Source: Candidatus Adlerbacteria bacterium (GTDB lineage: Bacteria > Patescibacteriota > Minisyncoccia > Phycocordibacterales > SBAW01). From it: a stretch of DNA of 64,000 nucleotides. The notes below the pieces were generated by a model, which did no database searches, was not told the DNA's origin, and saw nothing but the letters and a program-made list of their open reading frames with translations. Shown here in pieces: positions 33,013 to 47,575 of the stretch. Position numbers and translations under genes: made by a program. The stretch lies in contig CAVVLG010000003.1 of NCBI GenBank assembly GCA_963749085.1, positions 80,235 to 144,234 on the forward strand, in the 5' to 3' direction. Each line of letters begins with the position of its first letter. Within the stretch, counting starts at the first letter, position 1.

Positions 33013-33085
33013 GCTTGGGTAGCTCAGTTGGTAGAGCATCTCCCTGAAGAGGAGGGGGTCGCCGGTTCGAGCCCGGCCCCAAGCA
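33013..33085 (+). tRNA. tRNA-Phe (anticodon GAA)
   Basis: Acceptor GCTTGGG/CCCAAGC, D-arm TAGCTCAGTTGGTAGAGCA, anticodon loop CTGAAGA, T-arm GCCGGTTCGAGCCCGGC. Confidence 0.85.
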
Positions 33086-33095
33086 CACCGTCTAG

Positions 33096-33332
33096 CTAGT
33101 GCGATGTGGTCGTGCTTTGTTGATTTAGGAGATCACCAAAAAAGTTTGATATTTGGCTTTCATACGTCTGAGCCTGCTTCTGATCGGTCTGCAAATTACT
33201 GTACGCTTGTTCGATTTTCAGCAGATATGGCTGGTAATAATAGTAGGCGACACCTGAGGCCGCGATAATAAGAAGCCACCACAGAACCATAAAGAAGCGC
33301 CCCCACGCCGCTCCGCGGCGCACCTTATGCAC
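33096..33332 (-). CDS. small membrane protein (start trimmed to an internal Met)
   Basis: 'MVHKVRRGAAWGRFFMVLWWLLIIAASGVAYYYYQ' one TM; the longer ORF-track N-terminus is translated from the 68-bp repeat and is probably artefactual. Confidence 0.25.
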   Translation of the reverse strand: MHKVRRGAAWGRFFMVLWWLLIIAASGVAYYYYQPYLLKIEQAYSNLQTDQKQAQTYESQISNFFGDLLNQQSTTTSH

Positions 33333-33440
33333 CATGCGATTGGTATCTTCTGATAAAGCAATGTTCCGACGAACAAGTTCTTTTAATTCATCTATTTGCG
33401 GATCCACAAAAAAAGTATAGCACGCTCTCTTTGTGCCCCC

Positions 33441-33508
33441 GGGCGATACCGTACTGACTTCGATGGGGGCCGGTATCGGTTCCCTGCGCCACAGCGCTGT
33501 GCCCCCGG
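33441..33508 (+). repeat. 68-bp direct repeat, copy A (followed by a 22-bp partial second unit)
   Basis: gggcgataccgtactgacttcgatgggggccggtatcggttccctgcgccacagcgctgtgcccccgg is identical to 46984..47051; it contains an 8-bp IR (cgataccg/cggtatcg) and the 12-bp palindrome cacagcgctgtg. Confidence 0.85.
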
Positions 33509-33788
33509 GCGATACCGTACCCCATTCGGTAAGCACCCCAAGGGTTCTTTGATGTACATATAGTATGCGATGGCGAAGGGGGCCGGAATGCCTCAGTTGC
33601 GGGAGATTTTGAAGATTTTTGGGGCGATTCGATGAGCCGAGAGGAGGGGCGGTACCGTACCAGATGAAATGCCTAAAAATGCCTAAAAATTGGATGGTTT
33701 GTGCTTGGGGAGCAGAAATTTTAGGCTTTTGCCGTTCGAGCGATTTTACCCGGAATGGGACACGGAACGGCGTATCAAATGTGTAATT

Positions 33789-34301
33789 TCAGCCACTTGT
33801 ATCCCTACCCTTGGTATCAAGCAGCTGTTTGAATGTGGCATCCTTCACACGCCACAGATAGAAGGTCTTGCGGGTGATGTGAGAGTACTGGCAGGCCTCG
33901 GTTACTTGCATACCCGCCTTCTCGAATGAGAGCAGAAAGGAGAGCTTTTTGATGAGGGTGCGGAGTTGTGGACCTCTCAGTTTTGCCATGCGCTCAAGCC
34001 GTGCCTTGTTGGCCTGCTCCTGCCATTCCGCACGGTACTTATACTTGCCATACATAGGAGGAATAGAGAAATAGTTGGCAATCCAGTGCGTGGCTGACGG
34101 CATGGACCAGTTAAGACCTATAGCTTCTGCAGGTGATACAGGACCGTTGGAATCCCCATAATACAGATTACCCGATTGCTGTTGTTGGCGTAGAGTGGTA
34201 TTGGAGCCGGCGGGAGAGAGAGGAGCGTTGGAGTCGGCGTAGTAGAGATTGCCGGATTGTTGCTGGCGTATATGGGTGTTGGAGCCGGAGGCGGTTCTCA
34301 T
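33789..34301 (-). CDS. HTH-domain protein (transposase/terminase-small-subunit N-terminal-like), possibly a fragment
   Basis: C-terminal 'LRTLIKKLSFLLSFEKAGMQVTEACQYSHITRKTFYLWRVKDATFKQLLD' HTH; N-terminal half is Gln-rich with a 21-aa internal duplication; the true start may be the internal 'MAKLRG'. Confidence 0.3.
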   Translation of the reverse strand: MRTASGSNTHIRQQQSGNLYYADSNAPLSPAGSNTTLRQQQQSGNLYYGDSNGPVSPAEAIGLNWSMPSATHWIANYFSIPPMYGKYKYRAEWQEQANKARLERMAKLRGPQLRTLIKKLSFLLSFEKAGMQVTEACQYSHITRKTFYLWRVKDATFKQLLDTKGRDTSG

Positions 34302-34374
34302 CTAAACTTAAATATCTTACTTTTTTATTAAGCTCATCTTTAATAGAGATACAGCGCTCCAGAAACGGCTCTTA

Positions 34375-34635
34375 CTAACCCTGATGACCAAATAGAAGCG
34401 CGACAATAAATAAGATTGTGAGCGCGACACAAAATAACGAAGCGATATATAATAGTATGCGGTATAACAGCGTGAGATACTGTTCTCGTTTTGGTTGCGC
34501 TGACGAACCAAATCCGGTAGCTTGAAGAAGCTTTCTTGCAAGAAAGATTCCTAGCGACCGATTGAAAACGGTACATGCAATAGCGATCGCAATAAACGCT
34601 ATTAATAAAATTGAATTACCTACTAAAGTGGCCAT
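34375..34635 (-). CDS. putative immunity protein for the orphan Rhs-CT (2-TM, paralog of 36289..36522)
   Basis: 86 aa with two hydrophobic helices; shares 'VGN..I..I.IAI..TVFN' and downstream 'Y..L.Y' pattern with the gene after the main rhs; AT-rich. Confidence 0.45.
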   Translation of the reverse strand: MATLVGNSILLIAFIAIAIACTVFNRSLGIFLARKLLQATGFGSSAQPKREQYLTLLYRILLYIASLFCVALTILFIVALLFGHQG

Positions 34636-34684
34636 ATGAGATTATTTTATACGAATAATATTTATAAGTTTGTACCGTCATATA

Positions 34685-35458
34685 CTACTTAATCACGCTC
34701 GGTGTCGACAGACTCGGCTGGGTATACAAATTTGCATTGTATGTATTGATCGCCTTTACAGCCGCGGCGAACCCAGTATCGCTAAGATTAGCACCTGAAG
34801 TATTAGCATAACTGATAACCGCATTCGAGATCTGACTTATATTAGTACCTCCCGAAGAAGATTGAACACCAAATGACTCGTTCGCTAGCATAGTTGGACC
34901 AAAGTATGCGGGCGTTTTATAAACAACTGATTCAGAAGCACCCATATCGAAACCGAATGTGGTAGTTTCTGTCCATGGAGTTGGCGGTCCAGCTTTAGGA
35001 TGTTTCCAGTCAGAGAAATCAAGTTGTGCCTCTGATGAAATTGACTCTCCTATGCCTGGAGTAAGGTCAGCTGAAGGTGAAGTGTATAAACCTGATGCGT
35101 CGAGGGAACCGCTCTTACTATACGTGCCCTGATAATTAACACCTAAAGCGAACCCAGCCCATGGGCCACCTTCAAATTGAATGCCCCAAGGATCGGTATC
35201 GACATTTGCACCTGCTACCACACCAAACCCTGCTCCGAGACTAACCGTCCCTCCGTATATATCTTTTCCTAAGGGGTCACTATTGGTAATGGGGTTATCT
35301 CGTCCATAGCTATAAGAGTTGAGTTGTTGTGGGTCCATTAATAGCTGGCCTTGCTGCTGTTGCGTCAATTGTCGAAGCTGAGTCGGATTTCCTACCGACA
35401 AACCTGCATGGATACGTCGGAAAAAGGATATTGTGCACCTTGATTCTGATCCGCGCAC
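34685..35458 (-). CDS. orphan Rhs C-terminal toxin cassette (core tail + DPxGL + variable CT domain)
   Basis: 'LLMDPQQLNSYSYGRDNPITNSDPLGKD' matches the Rhs core-end / aspartyl autoproteolysis motif and the main rhs tip 'LLADPQQLNAYSYSRDNPTTTSDPQGLG'; followed by a distinct but related Gly/Ala-rich CT. Confidence 0.7.
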   Translation of the reverse strand: MRGSESRCTISFFRRIHAGLSVGNPTQLRQLTQQQQGQLLMDPQQLNSYSYGRDNPITNSDPLGKDIYGGTVSLGAGFGVVAGANVDTDPWGIQFEGGPWAGFALGVNYQGTYSKSGSLDASGLYTSPSADLTPGIGESISSEAQLDFSDWKHPKAGPPTPWTETTTFGFDMGASESVVYKTPAYFGPTMLANESFGVQSSSGGTNISQISNAVISYANTSGANLSDTGFAAAVKAINTYNANLYTQPSLSTPSVIK

Positions 35459-35491
35459 TGCTTCCCAATCCTATTTCGACACAAGCTGAAG

Positions 35492-35523
35492 AAGAGGAGA
35501 GCCCGAACGCGTTGCACCGCGTT
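35492..35523 (-). terminator. strong hairpin (13-bp perfect stem) immediately upstream of the orphan cassette
   Basis: gagcccgaacgcg-ttgcac-cgcgttcgggctc; C/U-rich tract follows on the minus strand. Confidence 0.35.
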
Positions 35524-35788
35524 CGGGCTCAAGAGTCTGATTACCCATCCACCACTCTGAGAAGGAGAGGAACGTGATAACGCAGACCCCAACTGTACGG
35601 ATTGGTCAAAACGATTGGCGTCAGAAGCGCGCGAATCGCTCTTCTGACGTTCAGTATCGCACGGCAACCGCCATGCGCGAAGTGAGTAATCCCCAACCGA
35701 CCACAACATTGTGCCTGCCGATCGAGGCGCCGGCAGGTGGCTGGGATGCCTACAACAGAGCAGTTCTTGCCGTAATCCTGAGATCAAG

Positions 35789-36358
35789 GCGGCGATGCTT
35801 GAAACGTGCGTATTCGGAATAATTGAAAGTACCATGCTCGATCCGATTAAGCTGCGGACGTGTATGGACTTTTTCAATGAAAAAAAACTCGCGTATGACA
35901 ACGAGACCAACAAGTTTAAGGGAGAGCGCGAAGAGTTAGTGTTGCGCATACCGCTCTTGCATAAAGGCGAAGTGATCGACACGAGCGTTAAGCAATTCTG
36001 CGAAGCCGCTCGGGTGCGTTTTGAGAAGTGCGTTGACTTCGATACCAAGCGGCAATTCTTACTCGACTACGTAGAGAAGATAATATTTACTGATGATCAT
36101 GTCGCTGTATACGGATCGGTACCCGTGCACATGAAAGCGTATACGGATGCTGACGCTCCCATTGAGACGAGCAAAATTGAATTCAAGCTTGAGGGCGACA
36201 TTTCCTCGGTGGAGCGATTTGCGACTTACAAAAAGAAAAGCGGTGGGAGCCCGATCACTATGGCGGAATTTAATAACCGCATTGCAAATCATTTATTAAA
36301 TAACAGAGAACCGATAAAAAGGAGCACTGCGACGGTACAGAAAAACGAGAAGAAATAA
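35789..36358 (+). CDS. hypothetical protein (convergent to the rhs locus)
   Basis: K/E-rich, balanced composition; the minus-strand ORF on the same DNA is Ser/Arg/Leu-rich and looks antisense; start taken at internal Met 'MLETCVF'; 3' end overlaps the putative immunity gene by about 70 nt. Confidence 0.4.
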   Translation, partial: AAMLETCVFGIIESTMLDPIKLRTCMDFFNEKKLAYDNETNKFKGEREELVLRIPLLHKGEVIDTSVKQFCEAARVRFEKCVDFDTKRQFLLDYVEKIIFTDDHVAVYGSVPVHMKAYTDADAPIETSKIEFKLEGDISSVERFATYKKKSGGSPITMAEFNNRIANHLLNNREPIKRSTATVQKNEKK

Positions 36359-36522
36359 AATAAAACTCTGTAACAAATTACAAAGAATCGTTCCTGTCGC
36401 AATGACGACGGCAATATCATCATAAACTTCTCTGCAAAACGATTTGCCAGTTGTTTATTAAATACGGTAAAAACAATGGCTATGATTACGAATACAAGAG
36501 AAGCGATTATGTTACCAACCAT
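36289..36522 (-). CDS. putative cognate immunity protein of the main Rhs toxin (2-TM)
   Basis: 77 aa, 'MVGNIIASLVFVIIAIVFTVFNKQL...VICYRVLFYFFSFFCTVAVLLFIGSLLF'; begins 44 bp after the rhs stop; AT-rich. Confidence 0.5.
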   Translation of the reverse strand: MVGNIIASLVFVIIAIVFTVFNKQLANRFAEKFMMILPSSLRQERFFVICYRVLFYFFSFFCTVAVLLFIGSLLFNK

Positions 36523-36565
36523 AGAATTAAATTTTTAATGCTAATAAATATTGGGGTTCCATGGG

Positions 36566-39500
36566 CTATTTGGTGCCAGGTGTCGATGCACTCATTTGAG
36601 AGGAAAATAGGTTTGAATTGTAGGTGTTGATGGCTTTTACAGCCGCAGCAAAACTAGGATCAGCCAAGTTAGCACCAGTGGTATTCGCATAATTGATAAC
36701 TGCGCCAGAAAGTTGGCTAATATTACTACCTCCAGAACCAGAGGAAGGATTGGGGGAAGAACCTACGAAGCTTTGGAATTGGGAAATGACGTTACCAATA
36801 AAGCCAAGACTAAACGGTGACGCTTTGTATAGAACGGCATCGGTAGCCCCGGCATAGGCACCAAATGCGGGCACAACGTTGCCGACCGGTAATGCCGATT
36901 TAAGTTTAAATTTGCCGTCTTGCCAAGTCAGAGGCGCTTCGGACGAATAGCTTGCACCCACACCTGCGGCAGCTCCTGCTGAGACTTGGAAGTAAAGGCC
37001 CGCAGGATCCAATGACCCATTGGGGTCATACGTGCCTGAAACACGAGCACCTATGCCAGGCCCTATTGTGGGACCGTAACTGAATTGTCCTAGCCAAGAA
37101 TTTGTATCAATATCAAAGTTCGCTACCCCTCCGCCAAATATATACCCGGCATTTATGCTTCCCTCAAGAACACCGAGCCCTTGCGGATCACTAGTCGTTG
37201 TAGGATTATCCCTACTATAACTATACGCATTCAGCTGTTGTGGATCTGCTAGTAACTGATATTGGCTCTGGTCTAGAAGCTGCCCAACTTGATTTGGATT
37301 GCCGAGAGACAAAAATACAGGATCTTCCGAAAGGAACTGCCCCCTACTCCCGTCATAGTACCTCGCGTTCAGATAATCGAGACCAGTGTCATTGTCATAC
37401 ACCTGACCCACATACTTGCGCAGTGATGAGTAGCCCGCTAATTGGTCGTGGTTGCTAATGGATCCGTAGGGGGTGTAGTCGGTGACCTCCTGCACGTGGT
37501 TGTTAGAATCTGCGGTGACAGAGGCGGAGTTGAGTGTGTCGACGTAGTTGTAGTTGATAATCCCGCTTCCCGTAGCGCCGGTTATGTCAGCAACATCTTG
37601 ATTATTAAGGAAGATGTGCTTGGTGGGGAGCATTGAGACACTGTCGGTATTATAGTAGTCGTTGGGATAATAATAGGTGGTGCTTGCGGTGCCCACTCTT
37701 ACCCGATTGTCATTCTCATCGTAAGTGTAGGTGTCAGTGCCTGCCGTCGTGGTTGAGATGCTGAGGCGGTTGCGCCAATCCCAAGCACCTTGGAAGCCCG
37801 AGAGTCCTTGAGTGACGTTACCATTATTATCATACGTAATGGTGGTCTGGCCTACCTGCGTAGGGGCGTCTGGGTTGGCATAGCTAGAGCCTGTATTGCC
37901 TTGGTAGAGGTAGGTAGTAGTGGCGAATGTCCCGCCGAGTGTGGAGGAGGCGTCGGTGAGTACGTTACCTAAGGCGTCATAGGTCCACTGCTCGATTGTG
38001 TTGCGGCCAGCATTGGGCGCACCAGAGGAGATGTCAGGAGTAGTAGATGCCTGTATGAGTCTATTAAGACCATCGTAGGTGTAATCGACCACTTTGGCAG
38101 TTTTAGTGAAGGACGCATCGACAAGGTATGTGATATTTCCATTGGCATCATAAGTATAGGAGAGATCCTGTACACGGTTTCCCGGAGTCATGAAATAGTC
38201 GTTACCGTTGGACCAGGGAGACGGATTGTTATTTTGATCCCAGACTCTAATGCGCCAGAAATATTTGTTGGCATCGGTTCCGTTCGAAGGCAGCGTAGGT
38301 CCTGCATACGTTGATGTCGCCGTTCTTTGACCATTTTGCGTTTGCGGCGACAGAGTTACTTCGCCCGAATCCCATAAAGGAGTTGCCCAACTTCCTCCTC
38401 TTTGGATTACCTGAATTTCATAGGCTGAAGCTGTTGATGTGCCGGACGAATCATAGATGCCATTGAAGTACGGAGGAGGTGCCGTAACTTTGGTGTTTTG
38501 CTCCGCAAAGAAGTGGAAATTGTCGAACCACACATGACCGGTCGTTGTCCCTAGATCGAAATCGAAACGTCCATCTACATCTCCCGCATTTGGCGTAAGC
38601 GTAATTACGTAGTGATTCCAATTGGGATATAGATTGAAAGGGGTGAAGGGTGTAAATTGATTGTTAGGAGAGTGATTTTGATCGAGAACAACATCCGCAC
38701 TCCTTTGAGAGGTTGATTTGGCATCAAAGGCTAGTATGTACGTGGTACCAGTCGCCAGTGCCTGCTGTTGCCAAAACTGCACGTACCAATTTGTACTGGT
38801 AGCCTGGAGAACATTTATATTCGCCGAACAGCTCCCGTTGGTCGATGTAGTGCAATCCGTGCTTTCAGTCGCCTCCGAAGAGCCGTTATCTGTCCAGAAA
38901 CCATAGCCATAGTTGTTTCCTGTGGGATCGGAGATATTTTCAAACGATGGATTACGCACTGTAGAAAGACTATCAGGAATAAGTTCGACATCATCCAGCC
39001 AATACGTTGCACTATTAACCGCCCCGAGCGAAAATATCAGTCGTGAGTTTAGGTCAGTCGTCGTCGCGGTCGAGCTAAAGTAGTACGAGTACTGTTTCCA
39101 GTTTGGCGTGACGGTAGGGTTCACGTCGAGCCCGTAGCTTAGATATTGCCCGCTATTTTGCTGTAACGTTGCTTCGATAGTCGTCGTGGCCGATGCTTTT
39201 GCGCTGAATTCCAAAGTGTAATTGACGTTGGGATCGACGCGAAGCAGCTGTAGGAGTTGTGGTAAATAGTTGACACTTGTCGAAGCAACAACAATTTTAT
39301 CTGAGCAGGCACCAGTGAAGGCAGTTGTGCAGTCGATAGAACTGCTTGAAATACTTGAACCTTCATTAAACACCCAACTTGTGGAAGAGGCGTACTCAAA
39401 TGAGTCGTCGTAGGTTACCGAATTTGAGAACCAATAACCATCGGTATTGAGATTTGTTGAAGCAAATGGAGGAGTGGGGCCTGTTGAGGATGCGGCGTTG

Positions 39501-42500
39501 GCAAAAGTTTGCGTGATAAAGCCCATGGCATTGCCTACCGCAGTGCCCCAAGCTCCCGAATCTGGGAGGAGTGTCACTTTGTGCGTTAATCGATACAGGT
39601 GGTTCGCATCATAGGTATCGGTAGTAGTAGCACCACTGCCCCACAAAATGGTAGCCTCCTGGCCGAGCGGAGAGTAAAAAACATTTGAGACAACCGTACG
39701 CCATGGCGATGACGTTGCCTCGCGCTGCTGTATTTCTTGAACCAACCCTTGAGGACCTAGCGTGTATAACACCTCGGACTGGTCGGGATATACGATGTCG
39801 GTCTGATCGCCCTGTCGGTCGTAGGAATATGACGTGGTGTATGTTTGTCCCGCAATCTGTTTTACTTCTTGTGCAGGCTTCCCCAGAGGATTGTAGCTGT
39901 CGGTCGTTACAATAGTTGCATTCGCAGTTGTGGTTGCGATACAAATCAAGCCTATACCGTTTGAACAAGAATCATACTTATACGTTACCGAGTTTGCGCT
40001 GGCGGGCATGTAAGTAATTACGATGATACCCTGACCTCCCGTGCCCGCAGCACCGCCTACGTGCGTTGCCCCGCCTCCGCCTCCTCCACCTCCGCCTCCG
40101 CCGTACGTGCCGCCGTTTCCACCCGCTGAGCCGACTGCATCTCCTGTCGCGGACGCACCGCCGCCTCCGCCTCCGCTCGAACCATGAGACGCATCAAATT
40201 CTGTTCCGATGCCGCCAGCACACCCGACTGTTGCTGGAGTATTGTTTTGCCCCCCACCTCCACCACCGCCATTGGTACCGGCGGTGCATCCGGAACCACT
40301 GTCACCATTGCCGTGTCCTGTTCCGCTTGAATTGTTTCCGCCATTTGCTCCGTTACCTGTGCCTCCAGTACCATTCCCCGCCGTACCGCCGCCATTACCT
40401 CCTCCACCCGGCCCGGCCCCGCCAGTAGTATTTGCGCCTCCTTGCGCTCCCGCTCCGTTGGACCCTCCAGCACCGCCTCCCGCAGTTGGAGCCGCATGAG
40501 CGGCATACGTACCACCGGCTCCCCCCGCATATGTTGTCGAGCCTATAGACTGCGAAGTTAGACCTCCTACGCCAGAGGAGGTAGTACCGTTCCCCGCACG
40601 CCCCCATGAGCATGACAAAGAAGCGGTCGAGGAGGCGGTGCCGTTGAAATACGTTTCTCGAGCTTGCCCGACGGCAGTTGTCACTGACGTGGTTGTAGCA
40701 TCAGCTCCAATTGCGTAGGTTATGTTCCCTCCTGGCGTGAGAGATAGATTAGTGATCTTTGCATAGGCACCTCCACCTCCTGCGGCTCCACCCGCGCCTC
40801 CGTCGGCGACGCCTGCCGCGCCTTCGCCTCCTGATCCAACGCACTGGATAGTGTTGTTCGACGAGTTCCAGTTTGAGGGTACGTTCCAGGTCTGATTGCC
40901 TTTACCCGGATTAACGGTGAGGAAGATGACGGTGGCACCGCTTCCTCCGGTTCCTTCGGTCAACTCGCGATTGAGCGCATCATAAGTGTAGGTAGTTGTT
41001 TTGCCGTTGGGGTCAACTTTTTGCGTCACGTTGCCCGCAAGGTCATAGGTATAGGTCGTCGTGCCAAAAGTAGTGTCCGTCGCGACGTGAAGGTCCTGTG
41101 CCGTGAGTTGGCGATTGAGACCGTCATACGTGAAATTGCGGATATTGCCGCTGGCATCCGTCACTTCCGTGAGGTTATTTTTCAGATCGTATGCATATGT
41201 GGTCGTAGCGGACGTGGTGGTGGTGCTATGTTCAACCACATTGACCAGATTGCCGAACGCGTCATTCCAAAAATCCTTAAGATTGCCGTTAGGGTCCGTG
41301 ACCATGGTATGCCACGGATTATACACATAGGTTGTCGAACCGACCGCGTTATCGACGGAAGCGATTCTCTCCAATGGATCGTAGGTATAGCTGGTAAAGA
41401 GCGCGGTCGTTGTCGTAGGTGCCGCCCAAGACGTGCTTGAGGCAAAATATTGGAGGGATTCATCCACCAGCAAGCCGGAAGCACCGTACACATCATCTTT
41501 CACGGCATAGGTATTGGTTGGAGCCGCCTCCGTGCGCGTTTGTATGGTGCGGCCGAGACCATCAAAGTATTGGTATGAGACCGTGCTGGTTGCGGAGTTG
41601 AGATAGGAGGTCGTCGTGGTGTAAGTCGGGAAACCCGTGTCGGTATATGCGATAGTTGTATTCAAGTCAAGTGTGCTGGGCGTATTGAGGTCAGGCTGCA
41701 ACTTCTCACTAACGCGCCCGACCGGATCGTACACGGTGACATGCGTGAGCCCGTTGGGATCGGTCGTGGTCGCCACATTGCCAGTCCCATAATCGTACAT
41801 ATAACTAGTGGATTGGTTGAGCGCATTGGTCGAAGTGGCAGGGTAATAATTGAAACTGTCGAATGAATAGCTGGTTTGATTACCGTTAGGGTCAGTGCTG
41901 CTCGCCACAAGGCCGTAGGAGTTATATGACTTCGTCTTGCTCGCATAGGTACTTCCTGTAATCCAATCCTCCTCCTTAGTCTGATTTCCGAGTGATACAG
42001 ACCCCAGCGGTAGGCCGTCGTAGTAATACTGGGTTTCTGAAAGCTGAGTGCTACTCGCATTGGTAAGTATAATGTCGTCTTGCAGATCCAGCGTCGAGCT
42101 TGCATTGGTCGCATAGGTAATATTTTTGATGCTCTCATCATTGCTGCTGATAGTGGTGTACGTGCCATTGGAGCTGCCGTTTACTTGACCCAGATCCTCA
42201 ACCTGCGCGAGATCCCCTGTAGTGGTGGAGTACGTGTATTGAATGGCATGATCCATGTGATTGCTACCGCTGGGATCAAAATCCTGCGTCATTTGGTTAG
42301 CGAGAAAGACGAAATACCCGGTAGACGCGGTGGTTGAGGGAGTGGTGGTGGACGTAGTCCAGTCGTAGAAGGTGCGCTTCAGCAGCGTCCCGCTGGGAGT
42401 TTCGGTGTCTTCACGGAACACACGCCCAATTTGGGCATAGCTATCGCTCTGCTCGCCGTCGCCGGTCGTTACGCCGTTGCCTTGGTTGTAATAGGTGACC

Positions 42501-45172
42501 GTGGTGAAGTCGGGATGTGTCTCCTTTATAGTGTAGAAGCTTGCGAACTTCCTGTCCTGCGGAGCGTTCGCGTTGAAGTACAGAACGCCGCCATTGTAGG
42601 AATAATCGACTTCGGTGGTATTGTCGTCGTTATCACTGGTGAGGGTTTTTGACACCAATAGAAGCGAGAGTGGCAAATTGGGATTATTGCTCGTCTGGGG
42701 CGACGGAACATATGAGATCTGCTCGTTACCACCTTTGGGATAATTAATTTGCGTCAGTACGTCCTGGCGCGAAGCGTTGTTTATTTCATCGACATTGTCC
42801 GGCAACCCATCGCCGTTCCAATCGACATATTCGTTATCTATCTCAGTATCATACTGATTGTATTGAACGATGTAGGAAGGAAGCTGTATTGAACTCGTGG
42901 CCCACCCCGAGCCGGTATTAAGCCACACAATATCGATCCCATTCGAGACCGGCGCATTGCCGTGCACTCCACCGACAATCGGACTGTAATATGATTCGAC
43001 GAGATCCGGCAATCCATCGCCAGTGAGGTCTATAAACCGAAGACCGCGATCAAAGTATTGATGGCTGCCGCTGTTGTAATAATAGGTGGACGTGGCGATG
43101 TTCCAAGGCGAATTGCACGATCCCGCCGGGATCCATCCGGTCCCAGTATTCATACAGACATACGTATTGTTAGCATCCGAATACACCCAATCATCAAGGC
43201 CGTCGCCGTTGATATCAACGAGCTGGGAGTCCGTAACCGTACCACCAGCCGCGTCTGGAAACGGTTCCACTGCCGTAAAATCACCACTGGGGGTCCATGC
43301 GCTGCCGTTGCCCATATAGCTTGTACTCGCCGTAATACCTGAACCTGAAGGCAATGCTTCGACATAACCAGGGTATCCGTTCCCATCGAGATTTCCAAAC
43401 ATACCCGATGTGTAGGTTATGCCCGAGCCGGAATTGTAAAGGCCGAAGGGAGGGATGACCCCGTTTAACGTCGAAGAGGCGAGCACCGTAAAGGTGTAAT
43501 CGCCGTTAGTTCCTGACGTATTTTCGTATAGTGCCGCGCCATCCAGACCCTGATCATTATGCACGACATCCGCATAGCCGTCGCCGCTGACATCAACGAA
43601 TCTCGTGCCGCTTTCAACCGGAGTCTGCGTGCTACCAAGACAGGCCCACGTGTACGAAGGAGGCTCGCTGACGGCCGTGTTGTCTATATATAACTGCCCA
43701 GGACCTCCGCAGGAAGCATAGCCGGATATTGCCGTATCGTTTACGCCATCGCCATGCGATTGGGCTGCGATGTTAGATTGGTTTGCAGCATATCCAAAAT
43801 TATTTTGAAACGTCCATGTCACTGATGTGCTGGCATACTGGAACGTCGTCGCCGGAAGAGTCAGTTGGTTACCGTTGGCATCCTCGCCAGTTTCTTGGAC
43901 GCCAGAGAGAAGCGACCGATACCCATTATTTCCCGTCGTATATGAAAGAACATATTTGCGCACTAAATTGCCATTCACCTTTGCGTCAATCTCTGTGATG
44001 CGATAATTGGTTGTCACTTCAAAGGTCGGCCGGTAATCGATGAACGAGTCGGGACGGGTTGAAGTAGCAAACGTTATACTCATCACGCCCGTGGTTGTTC
44101 CGTTTCCGGTATACGTTATCTGGAAAGGATAAATCTGATCGTCGTTCTTGGCGTAGGTGTATGAGATGTCATTGCCGTTCGTATCCACAACCTGTTCAAG
44201 CATCCAGGTATATATCTGCGTTGAGCTGGCGGCATCAAACTGCTGTGCTTGGGTCGTGGTGCCGTATTCGTAGCGGGTGCCATCCTTGTCATAGGCGGTC
44301 CACGTGTCGTTTGAGAATACGTATTTGACGAAGCTGCCGTCATTGACACGCGCGATATACGTGCTCGAGTTGGAGGATGTGGCTAAAAGGGTTAATTCTC
44401 CGTCTTTAGAGGAGGTAAAATAGTTGTCCGTATAGAGCCTATCAGTACCCGTTTTATTAAGCCTCTGTATGTAGGGGATGGAGAGCGACCAGCCGTATCC
44501 AACCAGACTGTTGTCTTGCAGGTTTTGGCTGTTGTAATTGAGGGAGAAATCGGGCTGTAAGCCGTTGCGGCCGGGCGGAATATCGAGCGGTATGTTTTCC
44601 GTCAACGCGCCGCTCGTCTTGTCCACTTGAGGAGCAATAGTTTGATATGTGAATAGATATGGATTCGTAACTGTCGGTGGAGAACTACCACCGCTAGGAG
44701 GTGGAGGACCCGGAGGTTGGCTTGCTGGAGTGCTGGGAGTCGTTGGGCTGCTAGGGGCGGGCGTCGTTGGGTTACTCGGATTACTACCATTATTCGTATC
44801 ACTGTTATCAGTAGAGCTATTGTCGGTAGGACTTGTATCCACACTGGGCGTCGTGGCGTTATCCGCGCTGGGCGTCGCCTGATCGGATGAATCGCTCGGT
44901 TGTTGCGTCGATGCTCCTAATATATCGCCCAGTGGGGTGACTTTCGGCGTATCGGGCGTAGTATTTGCATCTGTCGATTGATCCGAGGACTGTGAAGAAT
45001 CAAAAGTTGCGGAAGCGTCAGTACCTGAGGAGGTGGAGCTCGGGTCCGTTATTGATGTCTGTGCATCCGCTGAAGGAGTGTCAGTCGCGCTCTGGGCAAA
45101 TATAGTGCTCACCGGAGAGAGCAATAAAGTTGCAAGCGTAAAGCCTGCGATAAGTTTTCTCACCGCCCACAT
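36566..45172 (-). CDS. giant Rhs/YD-repeat polymorphic toxin, TcB-TcC-fusion-like (SpvB + FG-GAP propeller + YD shell with Gly-rich insert, 2 CBM4_9-like and an FN3-like module + C-terminal toxin)
   Basis: Signal peptide 'MWAVRKLIAGFTLATLLLSPVSTIFA|QSA'; SpvB-type 'DFSLNYNSQNLQDNSLVGYGWSLSIP'; FG-GAP 'DVSGDGYADVV/DINGDGLDDWV/DLTGDGLPDLV'; many YD repeats (e.g. 'TYTYDLAGNVTQKVDPNGKTTTYTYDALNRE'); Rhs core end 'ARYYDGSRGQFLSEDP...NAYSYSRDNPTTTSDPQGL'. Confidence 0.85.
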   Translation of the reverse strand: MWAVRKLIAGFTLATLLLSPVSTIFAQSATDTPSADAQTSITDPSSTSSGTDASATFDSSQSSDQSTDANTTPDTPKVTPLGDILGASTQQPSDSSDQATPSADNATTPSVDTSPTDNSSTDNSDTNNGSNPSNPTTPAPSSPTTPSTPASQPPGPPPPSGGSSPPTVTNPYLFTYQTIAPQVDKTSGALTENIPLDIPPGRNGLQPDFSLNYNSQNLQDNSLVGYGWSLSIPYIQRLNKTGTDRLYTDNYFTSSKDGELTLLATSSNSSTYIARVNDGSFVKYVFSNDTWTAYDKDGTRYEYGTTTQAQQFDAASSTQIYTWMLEQVVDTNGNDISYTYAKNDDQIYPFQITYTGNGTTTGVMSITFATSTRPDSFIDYRPTFEVTTNYRITEIDAKVNGNLVRKYVLSYTTGNNGYRSLLSGVQETGEDANGNQLTLPATTFQYASTSVTWTFQNNFGYAANQSNIAAQSHGDGVNDTAISGYASCGGPGQLYIDNTAVSEPPSYTWACLGSTQTPVESGTRFVDVSGDGYADVVHNDQGLDGAALYENTSGTNGDYTFTVLASSTLNGVIPPFGLYNSGSGITYTSGMFGNLDGNGYPGYVEALPSGSGITASTSYMGNGSAWTPSGDFTAVEPFPDAAGGTVTDSQLVDINGDGLDDWVYSDANNTYVCMNTGTGWIPAGSCNSPWNIATSTYYYNSGSHQYFDRGLRFIDLTGDGLPDLVESYYSPIVGGVHGNAPVSNGIDIVWLNTGSGWATSSIQLPSYIVQYNQYDTEIDNEYVDWNGDGLPDNVDEINNASRQDVLTQINYPKGGNEQISYVPSPQTSNNPNLPLSLLLVSKTLTSDNDDNTTEVDYSYNGGVLYFNANAPQDRKFASFYTIKETHPDFTTVTYYNQGNGVTTGDGEQSDSYAQIGRVFREDTETPSGTLLKRTFYDWTTSTTTPSTTASTGYFVFLANQMTQDFDPSGSNHMDHAIQYTYSTTTGDLAQVEDLGQVNGSSNGTYTTISSNDESIKNITYATNASSTLDLQDDIILTNASSTQLSETQYYYDGLPLGSVSLGNQTKEEDWITGSTYASKTKSYNSYGLVASSTDPNGNQTSYSFDSFNYYPATSTNALNQSTSYMYDYGTGNVATTTDPNGLTHVTVYDPVGRVSEKLQPDLNTPSTLDLNTTIAYTDTGFPTYTTTTSYLNSATSTVSYQYFDGLGRTIQTRTEAAPTNTYAVKDDVYGASGLLVDESLQYFASSTSWAAPTTTTALFTSYTYDPLERIASVDNAVGSTTYVYNPWHTMVTDPNGNLKDFWNDAFGNLVNVVEHSTTTTSATTTYAYDLKNNLTEVTDASGNIRNFTYDGLNRQLTAQDLHVATDTTFGTTTYTYDLAGNVTQKVDPNGKTTTYTYDALNRELTEGTGGSGATVIFLTVNPGKGNQTWNVPSNWNSSNNTIQCVGSGGEGAAGVADGGAGGAAGGGGAYAKITNLSLTPGGNITYAIGADATTTSVTTAVGQARETYFNGTASSTASLSCSWGRAGNGTTSSGVGGLTSQSIGSTTYAGGAGGTYAAHAAPTAGGGAGGSNGAGAQGGANTTGGAGPGGGGNGGGTAGNGTGGTGNGANGGNNSSGTGHGNGDSGSGCTAGTNGGGGGGGQNNTPATVGCAGGIGTEFDASHGSSGGGGGGASATGDAVGSAGGNGGTYGGGGGGGGGGGATHVGGAAGTGGQGIIVITYMPASANSVTYKYDSCSNGIGLICIATTTANATIVTTDSYNPLGKPAQEVKQIAGQTYTTSYSYDRQGDQTDIVYPDQSEVLYTLGPQGLVQEIQQREATSSPWRTVVSNVFYSPLGQEATILWGSGATTTDTYDANHLYRLTHKVTLLPDSGAWGTAVGNAMGFITQTFANAASSTGPTPPFASTNLNTDGYWFSNSVTYDDSFEYASSTSWVFNEGSSISSSSIDCTTAFTGACSDKIVVASTSVNYLPQLLQLLRVDPNVNYTLEFSAKASATTTIEATLQQNSGQYLSYGLDVNPTVTPNWKQYSYYFSSTATTTDLNSRLIFSLGAVNSATYWLDDVELIPDSLSTVRNPSFENISDPTGNNYGYGFWTDNGSSEATESTDCTTSTNGSCSANINVLQATSTNWYVQFWQQQALATGTTYILAFDAKSTSQRSADVVLDQNHSPNNQFTPFTPFNLYPNWNHYVITLTPNAGDVDGRFDFDLGTTTGHVWFDNFHFFAEQNTKVTAPPPYFNGIYDSSGTSTASAYEIQVIQRGGSWATPLWDSGEVTLSPQTQNGQRTATSTYAGPTLPSNGTDANKYFWRIRVWDQNNNPSPWSNGNDYFMTPGNRVQDLSYTYDANGNITYLVDASFTKTAKVVDYTYDGLNRLIQASTTPDISSGAPNAGRNTIEQWTYDALGNVLTDASSTLGGTFATTTYLYQGNTGSSYANPDAPTQVGQTTITYDNNGNVTQGLSGFQGAWDWRNRLSISTTTAGTDTYTYDENDNRVRVGTASTTYYYPNDYYNTDSVSMLPTKHIFLNNQDVADITGATGSGIINYNYVDTLNSASVTADSNNHVQEVTDYTPYGSISNHDQLAGYSSLRKYVGQVYDNDTGLDYLNARYYDGSRGQFLSEDPVFLSLGNPNQVGQLLDQSQYQLLADPQQLNAYSYSRDNPTTTSDPQGLGVLEGSINAGYIFGGGVANFDIDTNSWLGQFSYGPTIGPGIGARVSGTYDPNGSLDPAGLYFQVSAGAAAGVGASYSSEAPLTWQDGKFKLKSALPVGNVVPAFGAYAGATDAVLYKASPFSLGFIGNVISQFQSFVGSSPNPSSGSGGSNISQLSGAVINYANTTGANLADPSFAAAVKAINTYNSNLFSSQMSASTPGTK

Positions 45173-45585
45173 TTTTCTTTCCCACAAAAAATGAGGTGCC
45201 CTGCTCATAAAATTTTGCCCTGCCAAAAAACATATACCGGAGACCCAATGGTAACAGGGAAAACGAAACAGCAAGGAAATCTCTCCGGATTTTTATTTCA
45301 CCACTGAACTATTTTCCTGTTATTAAGCCACACATGAGACTAGGTGCGCAAATCTCGGCAAAGCGACATATGAAGTTTTTATGCAAACAAGTTTTCATAT
45401 CTCGGATTTCCGAACAGAGCAAAATAATAGTGCTTGATAATTTTCAAATCTGACGCGTTTATTAAAAAATTATCCACAGATCGCTATTACAAGTTACCAA
45501 CTAGGGGACCGGAATGGGGTCTGGACTCACAGCGGGTGTTGCGTCATTCATTGACCTTGCAGATTAGCAAGTAACCACAAGGTAT

Positions 45586-46923
45586 ATGAATATGACGTTT
45601 GAGGGTACCGCAGGGGTATTAGGGACAAAGCCGGAAATTAAGGAGACAGTGCGGGTGTGCTACTGCCTGTATGCTCGGAAGTCGACCGAACAAGACGAGG
45701 TGCAAGCGCTCTCTATCGAGTCGCAGGTCAAGGAGATGACTGCGCTCGCCACGCGGGACGGCTTGGAGATCGTTGAAATAAAACGGGAGTCGCACTCGGC
45801 GAAGGAGACCAATCAGCGGCCAGTCTTCAACGAGATGCTCGAGGAGATACGAGTGGGTACATATAATGGAATACTGACATGGGCAGCGGATCGCATCAGC
45901 AGAAACGCCGGGGACTTGGGCAAGGTCGTAGACCTCATGGATGCAGGGCTGCTCCATGGCATACAAACGTACAGTCAGAAATTCTCGAATAATCCGAACG
46001 AGAAATTCTTGTTGATGATCCTGTGCAGCCAGGCGAAGCTCGAAAACGACAACAAGCGGATTAACGTAAAGAGGGGCCTGCGCGCTCGGGCGGAGATGGG
46101 TATGCTGCCGGGATGGGCACCCATTGGATATCTCAACGACACGCGCAAGGACCACAGGTGCGAATATCTGTTGGACCCGCTTCGAGCGCCGGTGGTGAGG
46201 ATGATATTCGAGAAGGTTGCCAAAGAACGCTGGAGCGGGCTTAAGATATACCACTGGCTCAAGGAGGATCTAAAATTCACGACCCGCAGCGGTAAGAACC
46301 TCAATATCAGCACCCTCTATGAGATGTTGAAAAATCCCTTCTACTGCGGAGTGTTCGAGTACCCCCGCAAGAGCGGCAATTGGTACGTGGGCAAGCATGA
46401 GCCCCTCATCACAAGAGAGCTGTTTGAGCAGGTGCGGCAGAAAATCGTCGAGGAGACGGAGCCGCGTAAGCGCTCCAACGAATTCGCCTTTGTCCGCATG
46501 ATGACGTGTGGGGACTGCGGCTCCAGCATCACGGCATTCGAGAAGGATAAATTCATCAAGGGAACTGGGGAGACGCGCACGTACCGCTATTATGCGTGCT
46601 GTCGGTCGAAGGACCGCCATTGCAAGAGCCTCTATGTACGCGAGGACGCTATGATGGAGCAGCTCATCGGCATCATCGACGAGGTGGAAATAGACCAGCT
46701 GGGTGCCCGGCATCTTATCGACAGAGAGATTGTTCGCTTCAACAAACTACAGTCGAAGGTACTTGGCAGCAAGGAAAAAGAGAAGGTGCGCGACATAGAC
46801 GTGCGGCGCTACGCGAAGTACCTGCTTGAGGAAGGGACGACTGAAGAGAAGCGCGAGCTGCTCGGACAGCTGCGCGGCAGGATTGTGCTGAAGGATAAAC
46901 AGATATCAATCGCGAAGGCCTAG
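45586..46923 (+). CDS. large serine recombinase (copy 2, paralog of 26816..28147)
   Basis: 445 aa with the same three-domain layout; Zn ribbon 'CGDCGS...YYACCRSKDRHCKSLY'; colinear with copy 1 and judged by eye about 60% identical. Confidence 0.85.
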   Translation: MNMTFEGTAGVLGTKPEIKETVRVCYCLYARKSTEQDEVQALSIESQVKEMTALATRDGLEIVEIKRESHSAKETNQRPVFNEMLEEIRVGTYNGILTWAADRISRNAGDLGKVVDLMDAGLLHGIQTYSQKFSNNPNEKFLLMILCSQAKLENDNKRINVKRGLRARAEMGMLPGWAPIGYLNDTRKDHRCEYLLDPLRAPVVRMIFEKVAKERWSGLKIYHWLKEDLKFTTRSGKNLNISTLYEMLKNPFYCGVFEYPRKSGNWYVGKHEPLITRELFEQVRQKIVEETEPRKRSNEFAFVRMMTCGDCGSSITAFEKDKFIKGTGETRTYRYYACCRSKDRHCKSLYVREDAMMEQLIGIIDEVEIDQLGARHLIDREIVRFNKLQSKVLGSKEKEKVRDIDVRRYAKYLLEEGTTEEKRELLGQLRGRIVLKDKQISIAKA

Positions 46924-46983
46924 ACAAACGCAAAAGCCGCGACCTGATATCGCGGCTTATGCGTTTCTTACGAGCTTAACGAG

Positions 46984-47051
46984 GGGCGATACCGTACTGA
47001 CTTCGATGGGGGCCGGTATCGGTTCCCTGCGCCACAGCGCTGTGCCCCCGG
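46984..47051 (+). repeat. 68-bp direct repeat, copy B
   Basis: Identical to 33441..33508; starts 61 bp after the recombinase stop. Confidence 0.85.
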
Positions 47052-47140
47052 CAGGAATTGCACCCACATTGACCCCTTAGGACGGGGCGGTTCTATCTGT
47101 TGAACTACGGGGGCTATAAACGCCACCACTGTAGCACACG

Positions 47141-47383
47141 TTACGCTTCTACTCCCAATTTATTAGCAAGTTTCTCGCGGTCAAAACCGATCATGATGTC
47201 GCCGCCGACCACAATGACGGGTACGCCGAGCTGACCCGTTAGTTTTATCATCTCTTGTCGTTTTGCTGCGTCGCTTGCGACGTCGTAGGCGGTATACTCG
47301 ATATGTTTTTCGGCGAAAAATTCCTTCGCCATTTGGCAGAAGTGGCAGGTCGGCGTCGAATAAATGGTTATGTGCTTGTCCAT
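47141..47383 (-). CDS. glutaredoxin-like protein (NrdH/YruB type)
   Basis: 'IYSTPTCHFCQMAKEFF' CxxC thioredoxin-fold motif and 'GQLGVPVIVVGG' typical of glutaredoxins; 80 aa. Confidence 0.8.
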   Translation of the reverse strand: MDKHITIYSTPTCHFCQMAKEFFAEKHIEYTAYDVASDAAKRQEMIKLTGQLGVPVIVVGGDIMIGFDREKLANKLGVEA

Positions 47384-47446
47384 ACAAATAATAAGTGATT
47401 GGCTGCTAGTAAAAACAGTATATCAAATATATAATCGACTCGCCAC

Positions 47447-47517
47447 GCGGATATGGTTTAGTGGTAGAACAGATGCTTCCCAAGCATCGGGCGGGAGTTC
47501 GATTCTCCCTATCCGCA
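47447..47517 (+). tRNA. tRNA-Gly (anticodon CCC)
   Basis: Acceptor GCGGATA/TATCCGC, D-arm TGGTTTAGTGGTAGAACA, anticodon loop TTCCCAA, T-arm GGGAGTTCGATTCTCCC. Confidence 0.8.
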
Positions 47518-47575
47518 CATGTTAGTGAGACCGACCTACCAGGCTCAAAGTGCTCAAATATGCTATGATAATTTT

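What the first reader, a model, noticed from the sequence alone, without database searches (positions are those of the whole stretch)
33441..47051. Perfect 68-bp direct repeats bracket a 13.6-kb segment containing the Rhs locus and a large serine recombinase
The 68-nt sequence gggcgataccgtactgacttcgatgggggccggtatcggttccctgcgccacagcgctgtgcccccgg occurs once at 33441 and once at 46984. Copy A sits 350 bp after tRNA-Phe and is followed by a 22-bp partial second unit. Copy B sits 61 bp after the stop of the second serine recombinase. Everything between them is accessory: an HTH/transposase-like fragment, the immunity genes, the orphan CT, the rhs gene and the recombinase. The flanks are core genes (Hsp20 and tRNA-Phe on one side, glutaredoxin and tRNA-Gly on the other). 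This looks like attL/attR of an integrated island with the recombinase at its edge. One caveat is that large serine integrases normally leave only a 2-12-bp shared core, so a 68-bp identity fits better with a duplicated target, with a tyrosine-type or unknown mechanism, or with a dispersed structured repeat. The unit carries an 8-bp inverted repeat and a 12-bp perfect palindrome, which suggests a protein-binding or structured element.
Basis: seen in the sequence. Interest (0 to 1): 0.8.

Follow-up and report, generated by a model that had tools for sequence, protein, structure and literature searches.

The report
Serine-integrase island inserted at tRNA-Arg

Summary
The 68-mer occurs exactly twice (33441-33508 and 46984-47051), against none expected by chance.

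Three related genomes keep the same gene order (Hsp20, tRNA-Phe, small membrane protein, tRNA-Arg, glutaredoxin, tRNA-Gly) without the 13.6 kb. In one of them, tRNA-Arg runs straight into the sequence that lies left of copy A in the window.

Only 11 nt (TGTGCCCCCGG) can therefore be target sequence. The other 57 nt form an element-borne module, 67-76% identical to modules downstream of homologous recombinase genes in other Patescibacteria genomes. Most of those abut tRNA-Met or tRNA-Met fragments. All are co-oriented with the recombinase gene, and several loci carry 2-4 of them.

Copy B is the junction of module and tRNA (attL). Copy A is a second, solo module. It has the 11-nt core on both sides and abuts the island's conserved left arm, giving an attP-like junction followed by an attR-like junction. 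This is a tandem array, probably left by deletion inside an earlier copy.

Verdict: a real integrated island and a new variant of a known kind. Interest is moderate.

The parts
33096..33407 (-). Small membrane-protein gene. This is the chromosomal flank (B') that directly follows tRNA-Arg in the empty site.
   Evidence: Translation. The orthologous gene directly follows tRNA-Arg in L076. A reconstructed empty site aligns colinearly with L076 across the junction.
33432..33442 (-). Outer copy of the 11-nt core TGTGCCCCCGG (CCGGGGGCACA in tRNA sense). It duplicates the last 9 nt of tRNA-Arg plus CA and marks the attR-like outer boundary of the insertion.
   Evidence: D7. The sequence to its left matches the downstream flank of tRNA-Arg in L076.
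33441..33508 (+). 68-mer copy A as reported: the last 2 nt of the outer core, a solo 55-nt module (33443-33497) and a second core copy (33498-33508).
   Evidence: nhmmer module hit at 33440-33502, E = 1e-15.
33509..33552 (+). Conserved left-end (P-arm) module of the island: GCGATACCGTACCCC...CCAAGGGTTCTTTGA.
   Evidence: Homologous P-arm modules occur in L004, L078 and L079, each directly preceded by a module.
33553..45585 (.). Cargo: a weak HTH ORF (33789-34301, minus strand), small ORFs with no family match, and a 2902-aa Rhs/SpvB toxin gene (36566-45274, minus strand).
   Evidence: Pfam scan and ORF list.
45586..46923 (+). Large serine recombinase LSR2 (445 aa).
   Evidence: Resolvase, Recombinase and Zn_ribbon_recom domains. 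PDB sequence hits to the SPbeta and A118 integrases. Full-length fold matches to the SPbeta, Bxb1 and PhiC31 integrases.
46934..46958 (.). GC-rich hairpin between the recombinase stop and the module. It scores as terminator-like on the minus (tRNA-Arg) strand; I infer that it also terminates the recombinase transcript.
   Evidence: An equivalent hairpin precedes the module in L003, L004, L012 and L088.
46984..47051 (+). 68-mer copy B: the right-end module (46984-47040) plus the core (47041-47051). This is attL, fused to tRNA-Arg.
   Evidence: nhmmer hit at 46984-47045. 67-76% identity to the modules of other genomes.
47042..47114 (-). tRNA-Arg(CCT), the integration target. Its 3' end overlaps copy B.
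   Evidence: ARAGORN. Rfam RF00005, 48.8 bits, at 47043-47114.

Best explanation
Window 33432/33443 to 47040/47051 is an integrative element (13,609 bp including one core copy) carrying an Rhs toxin cassette and its own large serine recombinase (LSR2). It is inserted at the 3' end of tRNA-Arg(CCT).

Anatomy. The element has two conserved ends. The right-end module M is about 57 nt and lies just after the recombinase terminator. It contains the motifs CGATACCG, ACTGAC..TCGA and CGGTATCG, then the palindromic stretch CACAGCGCTGTG. The left-end P arm reads GCGATACCGTACCC...AAGGGTTCTTTGA. In the circular form, M and the P arm would meet at an 11-nt core, CCGGGGGCACA, which is identical to the last 9 nt of the tRNA plus CA.

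Junctions. Recombination within this core, or at the conserved end of M next to it, joined M to the tRNA (copy B = attL). The tRNA therefore stays intact, and the element supplies a new downstream terminator.

Site A is not a plain attR. Reading in tRNA sense it is: P arm | core | a second M (55 nt) | core | original chromosomal flank. That is an attP-like junction followed 66 bp later by an attR-like junction. The second M is a solo module.

Origin of the solo module (inferred). It most likely comes from a tandem or earlier copy of the same element whose interior was lost by deletion between the 14-nt repeat GGGCGATACCGTAC. That repeat is present both in the P arm and at the start of M.

Shown: the insertion, the tRNA target, the 11-nt limit on shared sequence, the homology and co-orientation of the module across the recombinase family, and arrays in other genomes.

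Inferred: catalysis by LSR2, the exact crossover point, and the origin of the solo module.
For: 1. Empty site. L075, L076 and L077 keep TsaD, aaRS, PrsW, Hsp20, [tRNA-Phe, small membrane protein, tRNA-Arg(CCT)], glutaredoxin, tRNA-Gly, DivIC, LepA, MurJ. Hsp20 and glutaredoxin are 0.6-1.4 kb apart there, against 14.2 kb in the window. In L076, tRNA-Arg ...GGGCACA is followed by AAGG..TGCTATACT..GTGGATCCGGAAATAGAGG. In the window, CCGGGGGCACA at 33442-33432 is followed by AAGAGAGCGTGCTATACTTTTTTTGTGGATCCGCAAATAGATG. No module hit occurs in these loci.

2. The module is element-borne. Homologous modules (67-76% identity) lie downstream of homologous recombinase genes, next to tRNA-Met or tRNA-Met fragments, in L003-L008, L011-L013, L078-L083 and L088. 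All 35 hits are on the recombinase strand. There are 0 hits in 401 kb of control loci.

3. Arrays. L004 has four modules, and L007 and L078-L080 have three each. An 11.9-kb stretch holding a recombinase element is again bracketed by a 96-nt, 86%-identical direct repeat. All five distinct P arms seen are preceded by a module.

4. Exchange point. L078 and L079 share that 11.9-kb stretch but have different neighbours. Identity starts and stops within the 17-nt module terminus CGTCACAACCGTGTTGC.

5. Recombinase. LSR2 has the three LSR domains and conserved residues including the ARKST serine motif. It has PDB sequence homologues and fold homologues.

6. Paralogue. LSR1 (58% identity) has the same layout next to tRNA-Ser.

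7. Retargeting. An 83%-identical recombinase sits at a tRNA-Met, with the module terminus changed to match that tRNA.

8. The repeat is real in the reads.
Against: - No same-species empty site, circular junction or read-level evidence was available, because the organism was found in a single sample.
- Canonical serine integrases act only on attP x attB. Arrays in which a new element lands next to an old module need relaxed partner choice, homologous recombination or another route, and none of these was tested.
- The dyad centre defined by the inverted CGGTATCG/CGATACCG motifs lies 2-4 nt outside the 11-nt core. The two motifs would sit asymmetrically (about 10 and 19 nt) around a crossover placed in the core, which is unlike known LSR sites.
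- The origin of the solo module is a two-step inference.
- Loci with no tRNA found, or with only the end of one (L001, L002, L009, L073, L088-L090), are cut short after the recombinase gene, so the generality of the pattern is estimated from about 15 loci.
Confidence: 0.8

Rival explanations
1. The 68 bp are a duplicated chromosomal target. The sequence downstream of tRNA-Arg would have been copied at integration, as with the long identity segments of tyrosine-integrase islands.
For: The repeat contains the tRNA 3' end and lies in direct orientation at both island ends.
Against: The empty site in L076 has no trace of the 57 non-tRNA bases, and tRNA-Arg abuts the flank found left of copy A. The 57 nt are homologous to modules attached to a different tRNA in other genomes. 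No tyrosine recombinase is present in the island.
Confidence: 0.03
2. The 68-mer belongs to a dispersed structured repeat family (REP- or MITE-like, or a small RNA), and its position at the island ends is incidental.
For: Homologous modules are multi-copy in several loci. The unit has an inverted repeat and a palindrome.
Against: All copies are co-oriented with a recombinase gene. The window's copy A is preceded and followed by an 11-nt copy of the tRNA-Arg 3' end. Every copy examined but one (L004 12586) abuts a tRNA, a tRNA fragment or a conserved P arm. There are no copies in 401 kb of control DNA or elsewhere in the window. No fold is more stable than shuffled sequence, with z from +1.0 to -1.5 and different folds in different members. 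There is no Rfam match.
Confidence: 0.05
3. The contig shows only one of two configurations, or the wrong one. The real molecules would be a chromosome with only the 66-bp solo module next to tRNA-Arg, plus a free 13.5-kb circle carrying an intact module|P-arm junction, joined through the repeat by the assembler.
For: A 68-bp repeat gives exactly this ambiguity in a k=31 graph, and the Logan contig stops in the repeat. Recombination between the two 68-mers would produce precisely these two molecules.
Against: A 68-bp repeat is normally spanned by 100-150-nt reads and by the larger k-mers of a MAG assembler, but I did not check how the 305-kb contig was assembled. Both states are in any case states of the same element and do not change what the repeat is.
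Confidence: 0.1
4. The island entered and leaves by homologous recombination between the 68-bp modules (RecA-dependent). The recombinase would be inactive or used only for transfer-related steps.
For: The 100% identity over 68 nt would allow homologous recombination. A chromosome already carrying a solo module could capture a circle in this way.
Against: Arrays in other genomes join modules that are only 71-86% identical over less than 100 nt, which is a poor substrate for RecA. Junctions fall at one conserved 17-nt site. The recombinase gene is intact and conserved.
Confidence: 0.1

Closest known systems
Large serine recombinase (serine integrase) elements and prophages: PhiC31, Bxb1, A118/LI, SPbeta SprA
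   Same: The three-domain recombinase matches by sequence and by fold. The recombinase gene lies next to one att junction. The insertion boundaries share only a short core (11 nt).
   Different: Known LSR sites are about 40-50 bp (PMC12286644). I do not recall a well-studied serine integrase that targets a tRNA gene (own knowledge). Here the target is a tRNA 3' end, and the conserved element ends are about 57 nt plus about 44 nt. There is an extra P-arm-like motif about 50 nt from the core, the motifs sit asymmetrically around the core, and tandem arrays occur.
SCCmec and SCC composite islands (CcrAB/CcrC serine recombinases at the 3' end of rlmH)
   Same: An LSR-driven island sits at the 3' end of a conserved gene without inactivating it. 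Direct repeats of the integration-site sequence occur at each junction. There are tandem arrays that include recombinase-less units. This comparison rests on my own knowledge of the SCC literature, not on a test here.
   Different: The phylum, the target (a tRNA rather than rlmH) and the recombinase clade all differ. SCC repeats are about 15-18 bp, not a module of about 60 nt.
tRNA-targeting genomic islands of tyrosine integrases (Islander/TIGER definition)
   Same: An intact tRNA lies at one end and a displaced copy of its 3' end at the other. The integrase gene is next to the tRNA. Tandem arrays arise because the core is restored at both ends (PMC4383910, PMC7192596).
   Different: The recombinase is of the serine type. 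The displaced tRNA fragment is only 9 nt. The long repeat is element sequence, not tRNA sequence.
Tycheposons of Prochlorococcus
   Same: Cargo-carrying elements are anchored at tRNA genes and form arrays. A minority (27 of 937) encode a large serine recombinase (10.1101/2020.12.28.424599).
   Different: The lineage differs, and most tycheposons use tyrosine recombinases. No homology was tested, and no counterpart of the conserved module is known to me.
Phage phiRSM small serine recombinase integrating at a tRNA-Ser 3' end
   Same: It is a serine-family recombinase that uses a tRNA 3' end as attB. The paper is cited in the reference list of PMC7192596; the target detail is from my own memory.
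   Different: It is a small resolvase-like enzyme, not an LSR, and belongs to a filamentous phage. No module or arrays are described for it.

Membership tests
Large serine recombinase (serine integrase) | N-terminal resolvase catalytic domain with a nucleophilic serine | tested here: met
   PF00239, E = 2e-20, residues 28-173. The Y-A-R-K-S-T motif is at least 90% conserved in 38 homologues.
Large serine recombinase (serine integrase) | Recombinase domain plus zinc-ribbon domain C-terminal to the catalytic domain | tested here: met
   PF07508, E = 8e-17, and PF13408, E = 1e-5. Four invariant Cys (C308, C311, C338, C346). Full-length Foldseek hits to the SPbeta, Bxb1 and PhiC31 integrases, E down to 2e-19.
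Large serine recombinase (serine integrase) | Coiled-coil motif in the zinc-ribbon domain that controls directionality | tested here: inconclusive
   The model has helices at 353-366 and 375-393 after the ribbon strands. Mean pLDDT is only 70 and pTM 0.35, and the helices were not assigned residue by residue.
Canonical LSR integration (attP x attB giving attL + attR) | attL and attR share only a short central core. attP and attB are about 40-50 bp imperfect dyads centred on the crossover dinucleotide. | tested here: inconclusive
   The outer boundaries share 11 nt, which fits. But site A carries an extra module, conserved sequence extends about 57 nt and about 44 nt from the core, and the inverted motifs are not centred on the core.
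tRNA-integrated genomic island | Absent from the same syntenic site in relatives. The tRNA is intact at one end, a displaced 3' fragment lies at the other, and the integrase gene is inside. | tested here: met
   Synteny in L075-L077. tRNA-Arg is intact. The 9-nt fragment plus CA lies at 33432-33442. LSR2 lies 118 nt from the tRNA 3' end.
Tandem or composite island array (SCC-like) | More than one unit at one target, separated by repeated att sequences, with some units lacking a recombinase | tested here: met
   In the window there are three core copies and two modules. L004, L007 and L078-L080 have 3-4 modules with recombinase-less 1-3-kb segments between them.
Integron | IntI tyrosine recombinase, attI site, attC-bounded promoterless cassettes | tested here: not met
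   The recombinase is of the serine type. The module shows no stable single-strand fold of the attC kind.
Structured RNA or dispersed repeat family | Conserved secondary structure, or genome-wide dispersal independent of recombinases | tested here: not met
   Fold z-scores from +1.0 to -1.5 with inconsistent folds. No Rfam hit. No copies outside recombinase/tRNA contexts in the DNA held.

The most novel reading that the evidence does not exclude
In this reading, each unit, from 13-kb toxin, defence or metal-resistance islands down to one- or two-gene recombinase-less cassettes, is bounded by a ~44-nt left arm and a ~60-nt right module. Target choice would be re-programmed between tRNAs by changing the few module-terminal bases that copy the tRNA end. 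That would be a serine-recombinase counterpart of integron or tycheposon gene capture in ultra-small bacteria.
Probability: 0.35. Interest if true: 0.7.

Novelty: new variant of a known kind. Interest (0 to 1): 0.5.

Why it matters
It turns an odd 68-bp repeat into a precisely mapped island. The target is tRNA-Arg(CCT), the core is 11 nt, and both element ends and their cargo are defined.

It also points to an apparently undescribed family of serine-recombinase elements that target tRNA genes and shape accessory gene content (Rhs toxins, restriction-modification, CBASS, copper resistance) in Patescibacteria. Mobile elements are poorly charted in that group.

For recombinase engineering, naturally retargeted relatives are useful material for studying specificity. 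One example here is a pair 83% identical in protein, one at tRNA-Arg and one at tRNA-Met, whose att modules differ mainly at the terminus. The arrays suggest relaxed partner choice.

Tried and rejected
- An exact look-up of the window's glutaredoxin found nothing on record.
- Look-ups of LSR2 and Hsp20 returned only Logan contigs of one run, so no strain-level empty site or circle was available.
- A viral-contig scan for the module gave 0 hits.
- The metagenome scan used a four-way degenerate att pattern. The pattern was too loose: 54 loci, nearly all chance matches. Only L032 is a foreign tRNA-Arg(CCT), and it has no module. That scan was therefore largely wasted.
- A search for a long direct repeat or a tRNA-Ser 3' fragment marking the far end of the LSR1 element found nothing.
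- Single-strand folding of the module gave no signal, and Rfam gave none either.
- I first treated the window's own tRNA-Met (3198-3269) as an empty site for the Met-type elements. I retract that. It has no module, but a tyrosine integrase gene abuts it.
- I tried to pin the crossover dinucleotide from dyad symmetry. The inverted motifs centre 2-4 nt outside the 11-nt core, so no assignment is made. TG (CA in tRNA sense, just 3' of the discriminator base) remains a guess.
- Literature searches found no description of this family in Patescibacteria.
Full report
**Observation.** The 68-mer GGGCGATACCGTACTGACTTCGATGGGGGCCGGTATCGGTTCCCTGCGCCACAGCGCTGTGCCCCCGG occurs at 33441-33508 and 46984-47051 on the + strand. 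Both copies are perfect, and none of 100 shuffles gave a match (family D3). The stated distances to tRNA-Phe and to the recombinase stop codon are right. The 8-bp inverted repeat and the 12-bp palindrome are present.

Two things were missed.
- Site A is a period-66 tandem that extends on both sides of copy A. The 23-mer TGTGCCCCCGGGCGATACCGTAC occurs at 33432-33454 and again at 33498-33520 (D7).
- A minus-strand tRNA-Arg(CCT) lies at 47042-47114 (ARAGORN; Rfam tRNA model, 48.8 bits, 47043-47114). Its last 9-10 nt form the right end of copy B.

A Logan (k=31) contig from the same run carries the recombinase gene and stops exactly 30 nt into copy B. That is where a k=31 graph must branch if the repeat has two left contexts in the reads, so the repeat is not an artefact of the MAG contig.

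**The segment is an insertion, and the empty site is known.** The Hsp20 gene left of the island has close homologues (79-83% identity). Three of their contigs were fetched (L075, L076, L077). All three keep the window's gene order on both sides: TsaD, aaRS, PrsW and Hsp20 on one side, and glutaredoxin, tRNA-Gly, a DivIC-like gene, LepA, MurJ and a TPR protein on the other. Hsp20 and glutaredoxin are 0.6-1.4 kb apart in these loci, against 14.2 kb in the window. The interval holds tRNA-Phe, a small membrane-protein gene and tRNA-Arg(CCT).

In L076 the orientation matches the window. Read in tRNA sense, tRNA-Arg ends ...GGCCGAGGGCACA and runs straight into AAGGTTTGCTATACTCCCTCGTGTGGATCCGGAAATAGAGG, the start of the membrane-protein gene. 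In the window, the outer core CCGGGGGCACA (33442 down to 33432) is followed by AAGAGAGCGTGCTATACTTTTTTTGTGGATCCGCAAATAGATG. A reconstructed empty site, made by deleting the window's insertion, aligns colinearly with L076 across the junction.

The insertion therefore spans 13,609 bp between the two outer copies of an 11-nt core (33432-33442 and 47041-47051). The integration target is the 3' end of tRNA-Arg. Only 11 nt of the 68-mer can be target sequence: 9 nt of the tRNA plus CA.

**The other 57 nt belong to the element.** LSR2 (45586-46923) has Resolvase, Recombinase and Zn_ribbon_recom domains. It has sequence homologues among solved serine integrases (SPbeta, A118). A model built from 38 homologues matches the full-length SPbeta, Bxb1 and PhiC31 integrases.

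The family is very large in Patescibacteria: all 8000 scored candidates had E <= 1e-20. In loci fetched around homologues, a module 67-76% identical to window 46984-47045 lies downstream of the recombinase gene, usually just after a terminator hairpin. It abuts the 3' end of a minus-strand tRNA-Met, or a tRNA-Met fragment, in L003-L008, L011-L013, L078-L083 and L088/L089.

A profile of the module finds 35 hits in these loci plus the window, all on the recombinase strand. It finds none in 401 kb of control DNA, which included the three empty-site loci, and no further copy in the window.

A sequence that travels with a recombinase family and sits next to different tRNAs in different genomes is element sequence, not chromosomal flank. 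A recombinase 83% identical to LSR2 sits at a tRNA-Met, and its module ends ...GCTGTTGC|GGGGG where the window has ...GCTGTGCC|CCCGG. The module terminus thus copies the end of whichever tRNA is used.

The window's second recombinase, LSR1 (58% identical), shows the same layout. Its stop codon lies 111 nt from the 3' end of a minus-strand tRNA-Ser. The interval has the same architecture: a repeated motif (CATTGCGGG, twice) around an ACTGAC..TCGA spacer.

**What the two copies are.** Copy B is the module joined to the tRNA, that is attL. The tRNA stays intact, and the element's hairpin at 46934-46958 scores as a terminator for the tRNA strand.

Copy A is followed by GCGATACCGTACCCC...CCAAGGGTTCTTTGA (33509-33552). 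This is homologous to the left ends of elements in L004, L078 and L079, so it is the island's P arm. In tRNA sense, site A reads: P arm | core | module (55 nt) | core | chromosomal flank. That is an attP-like junction followed 66 bp later by an attR-like junction.

The long repeat exists because there are two modules, not because the recombination duplicates 68 bp.

**Tandem arrangement is the rule in this family.**
- L004 has four modules, and L007 and L078-L080 have three each.
- All five distinct P arms seen are preceded by a module.
- In L078-L083, an 11.9-kb stretch holding a recombinase element with restriction-modification and CBASS genes is bracketed by a 96-nt repeat of 86% identity.
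- Segments between modules can lack a recombinase and carry one to five small genes (NYN, NUDIX, HIT, Ham1, peptidase S51).
- L078 and L079 share that 11.9-kb stretch but have different neighbours on both sides. Identity begins and ends inside the 17-nt module terminus CGTCACAACCGTGTTGC. The window's counterpart is CGCCACAGCGCTGTGCC (33486-33502 and 47029-47045). This places the exchange point at the tRNA-proximal end of the module.

**Origin of the solo module (inference).** The first 14 nt of the 68-mer, GGGCGATACCGTAC (the core's last two bases plus the start of the module), are identical to the core/P-arm junction at 33507-33520. A deletion between these two repeats inside one integrated copy leaves exactly core, 55-nt module, core. 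The observed site A is that scar with a full element inserted between it and the tRNA. Equivalently, it is a tandem dimer whose outer copy suffered this deletion. The 100% identity of the two 68-mers argues for a recent event involving the same element.

Recombination between the two 68-mers, whether homologous or enzyme-mediated, would release a circle with an intact module|P-arm site and leave the scar. Both states may coexist in the sample. I could not test this.

**Open problems.**
- Canonical serine integrases recombine only attP with attB, and their sites are about 40-50 bp (PMC12286644). Here the conserved ends extend about 57 nt and about 44 nt from the core.
- The module has an extra P-arm-like motif about 50 nt from the core.
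- The inverted CGGTATCG/CGATACCG motifs centre on the palindrome, 2-4 nt outside the 11-nt core that the primary integration must have used.
- Arrays imply insertion next to an existing module. That needs relaxed partner choice, which as far as I recall is described for the Ccr recombinases of SCCmec, or another route.
- Single-strand folding gives no stable or shared structure and Rfam has no match. The module is therefore best read as duplex protein-binding DNA.

**Comparison with known systems.** The enzyme is a member of the large serine recombinase family (membership features met, except the coiled coil, which is inconclusive). The element fits the definition of a tRNA-integrated genomic island with tandem arrays (PMC4383910, PMC7192596). 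However, it uses a serine rather than a tyrosine integrase and displaces only 9 nt of the tRNA. Serine recombinases at tRNA genes are known but rare: 27 of 937 Prochlorococcus elements (10.1101/2020.12.28.424599), and phage phiRSM from memory. Five literature searches found no description of this family or its module in Patescibacteria. I rate it a new variant of a known kind.

**Verdict.** The island and the edge recombinase are right. The target, the nature of the repeat and the 'duplicated target' alternative are wrong.

Confidence is about 0.8 that the 68-mer is the att module of a serine-recombinase island integrated at tRNA-Arg(CCT), and about 0.5 for the deletion-scar origin of the solo copy. 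Interest is 0.5.

Noticed in passing
window 2001-3269: A tyrosine integrase gene (2001-3146, +; Phage_integrase, E = 1e-33) ends 52 nt before the 3' end of minus-strand tRNA-Met (3198-3269). This is the third recombinase in the window that faces a tRNA 3' end. The element would extend left, beyond the window.
   Followed up: partly
window 26816-28345: A second large serine recombinase, LSR1 (58% identical to LSR2), lies 111 nt from the 3' end of minus-strand tRNA-Ser(CGA). The interval (28195-28257) has a module-like layout: CATTGCGGG twice around ACTGACACATCGA, with CAATGCGG spanning the tRNA end. No far-end repeat was found, so the extent of this element is unknown.
   Followed up: partly
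window 21448-26124: A large secreted repeat-protein gene appears to be split by an IS. It comprises Ig-like domains, eight tandem copies of a repeat spaced mostly 237 nt apart (22170-24482), and a peptidoglycan-binding N-terminal part at 25519-26124. The IS carries a DUF4096 (IS4/IS5-type) transposase at 24943-25485 and has roughly 22-nt terminal inverted repeats near 24700 and 25531-25554.
   Followed up: partly
window 26380-26680: Just upstream of LSR1 there is an HTH-like reading frame on the minus strand that seems to be interrupted. It may be a decayed regulator or an excisionase-like gene of the LSR1 element.
   Followed up: no
window 33665-33690: A short tandem duplication, aatgcctaaaa twice, lies inside the island between the P arm and the first ORF.
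   Followed up: no
L078, L079, L080, L088: Related recombinase elements carry restriction-modification, CBASS-type (SMODS/AGS_C) and copper-resistance (HMA P-type ATPase, cupredoxin, DsbD) cargo. The same 11.9-kb stretch occurs with at least three combinations of neighbours in different samples.
   Followed up: partly
L005 13347-13383; L006 14992-15031; L007 20039-20078; L013 13597-13636; L079 14534-14570: Modules are followed by 37-40-nt tRNA-Met 3' fragments. These end in the anticodon stem or loop and are then followed by conserved foreign sequence (CTTACCACTACAA... or CTTTTACAC...). This suggests a different element type, integrating in the anticodon region, has displaced older recombinase arrays from the same tRNA-Met.
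   Followed up: no
L007 16976-17040; L008 13019-13080; L078 13337-13396: After some modules, a fragment of about 20 nt from the tRNA-Met 3' end faces a plus-strand tRNA-like T-arm/acceptor fragment (GTTCGATTCCGRYCCCC) about 30 nt away. This convergent pair of fragments is unexplained.
   Followed up: no
L075, L076, L077 versus window 33013-47518: The orientation of tRNA-Phe and tRNA-Arg relative to glutaredoxin differs among close relatives (small inversions around these tRNA genes), although the gene order is kept.
   Followed up: no
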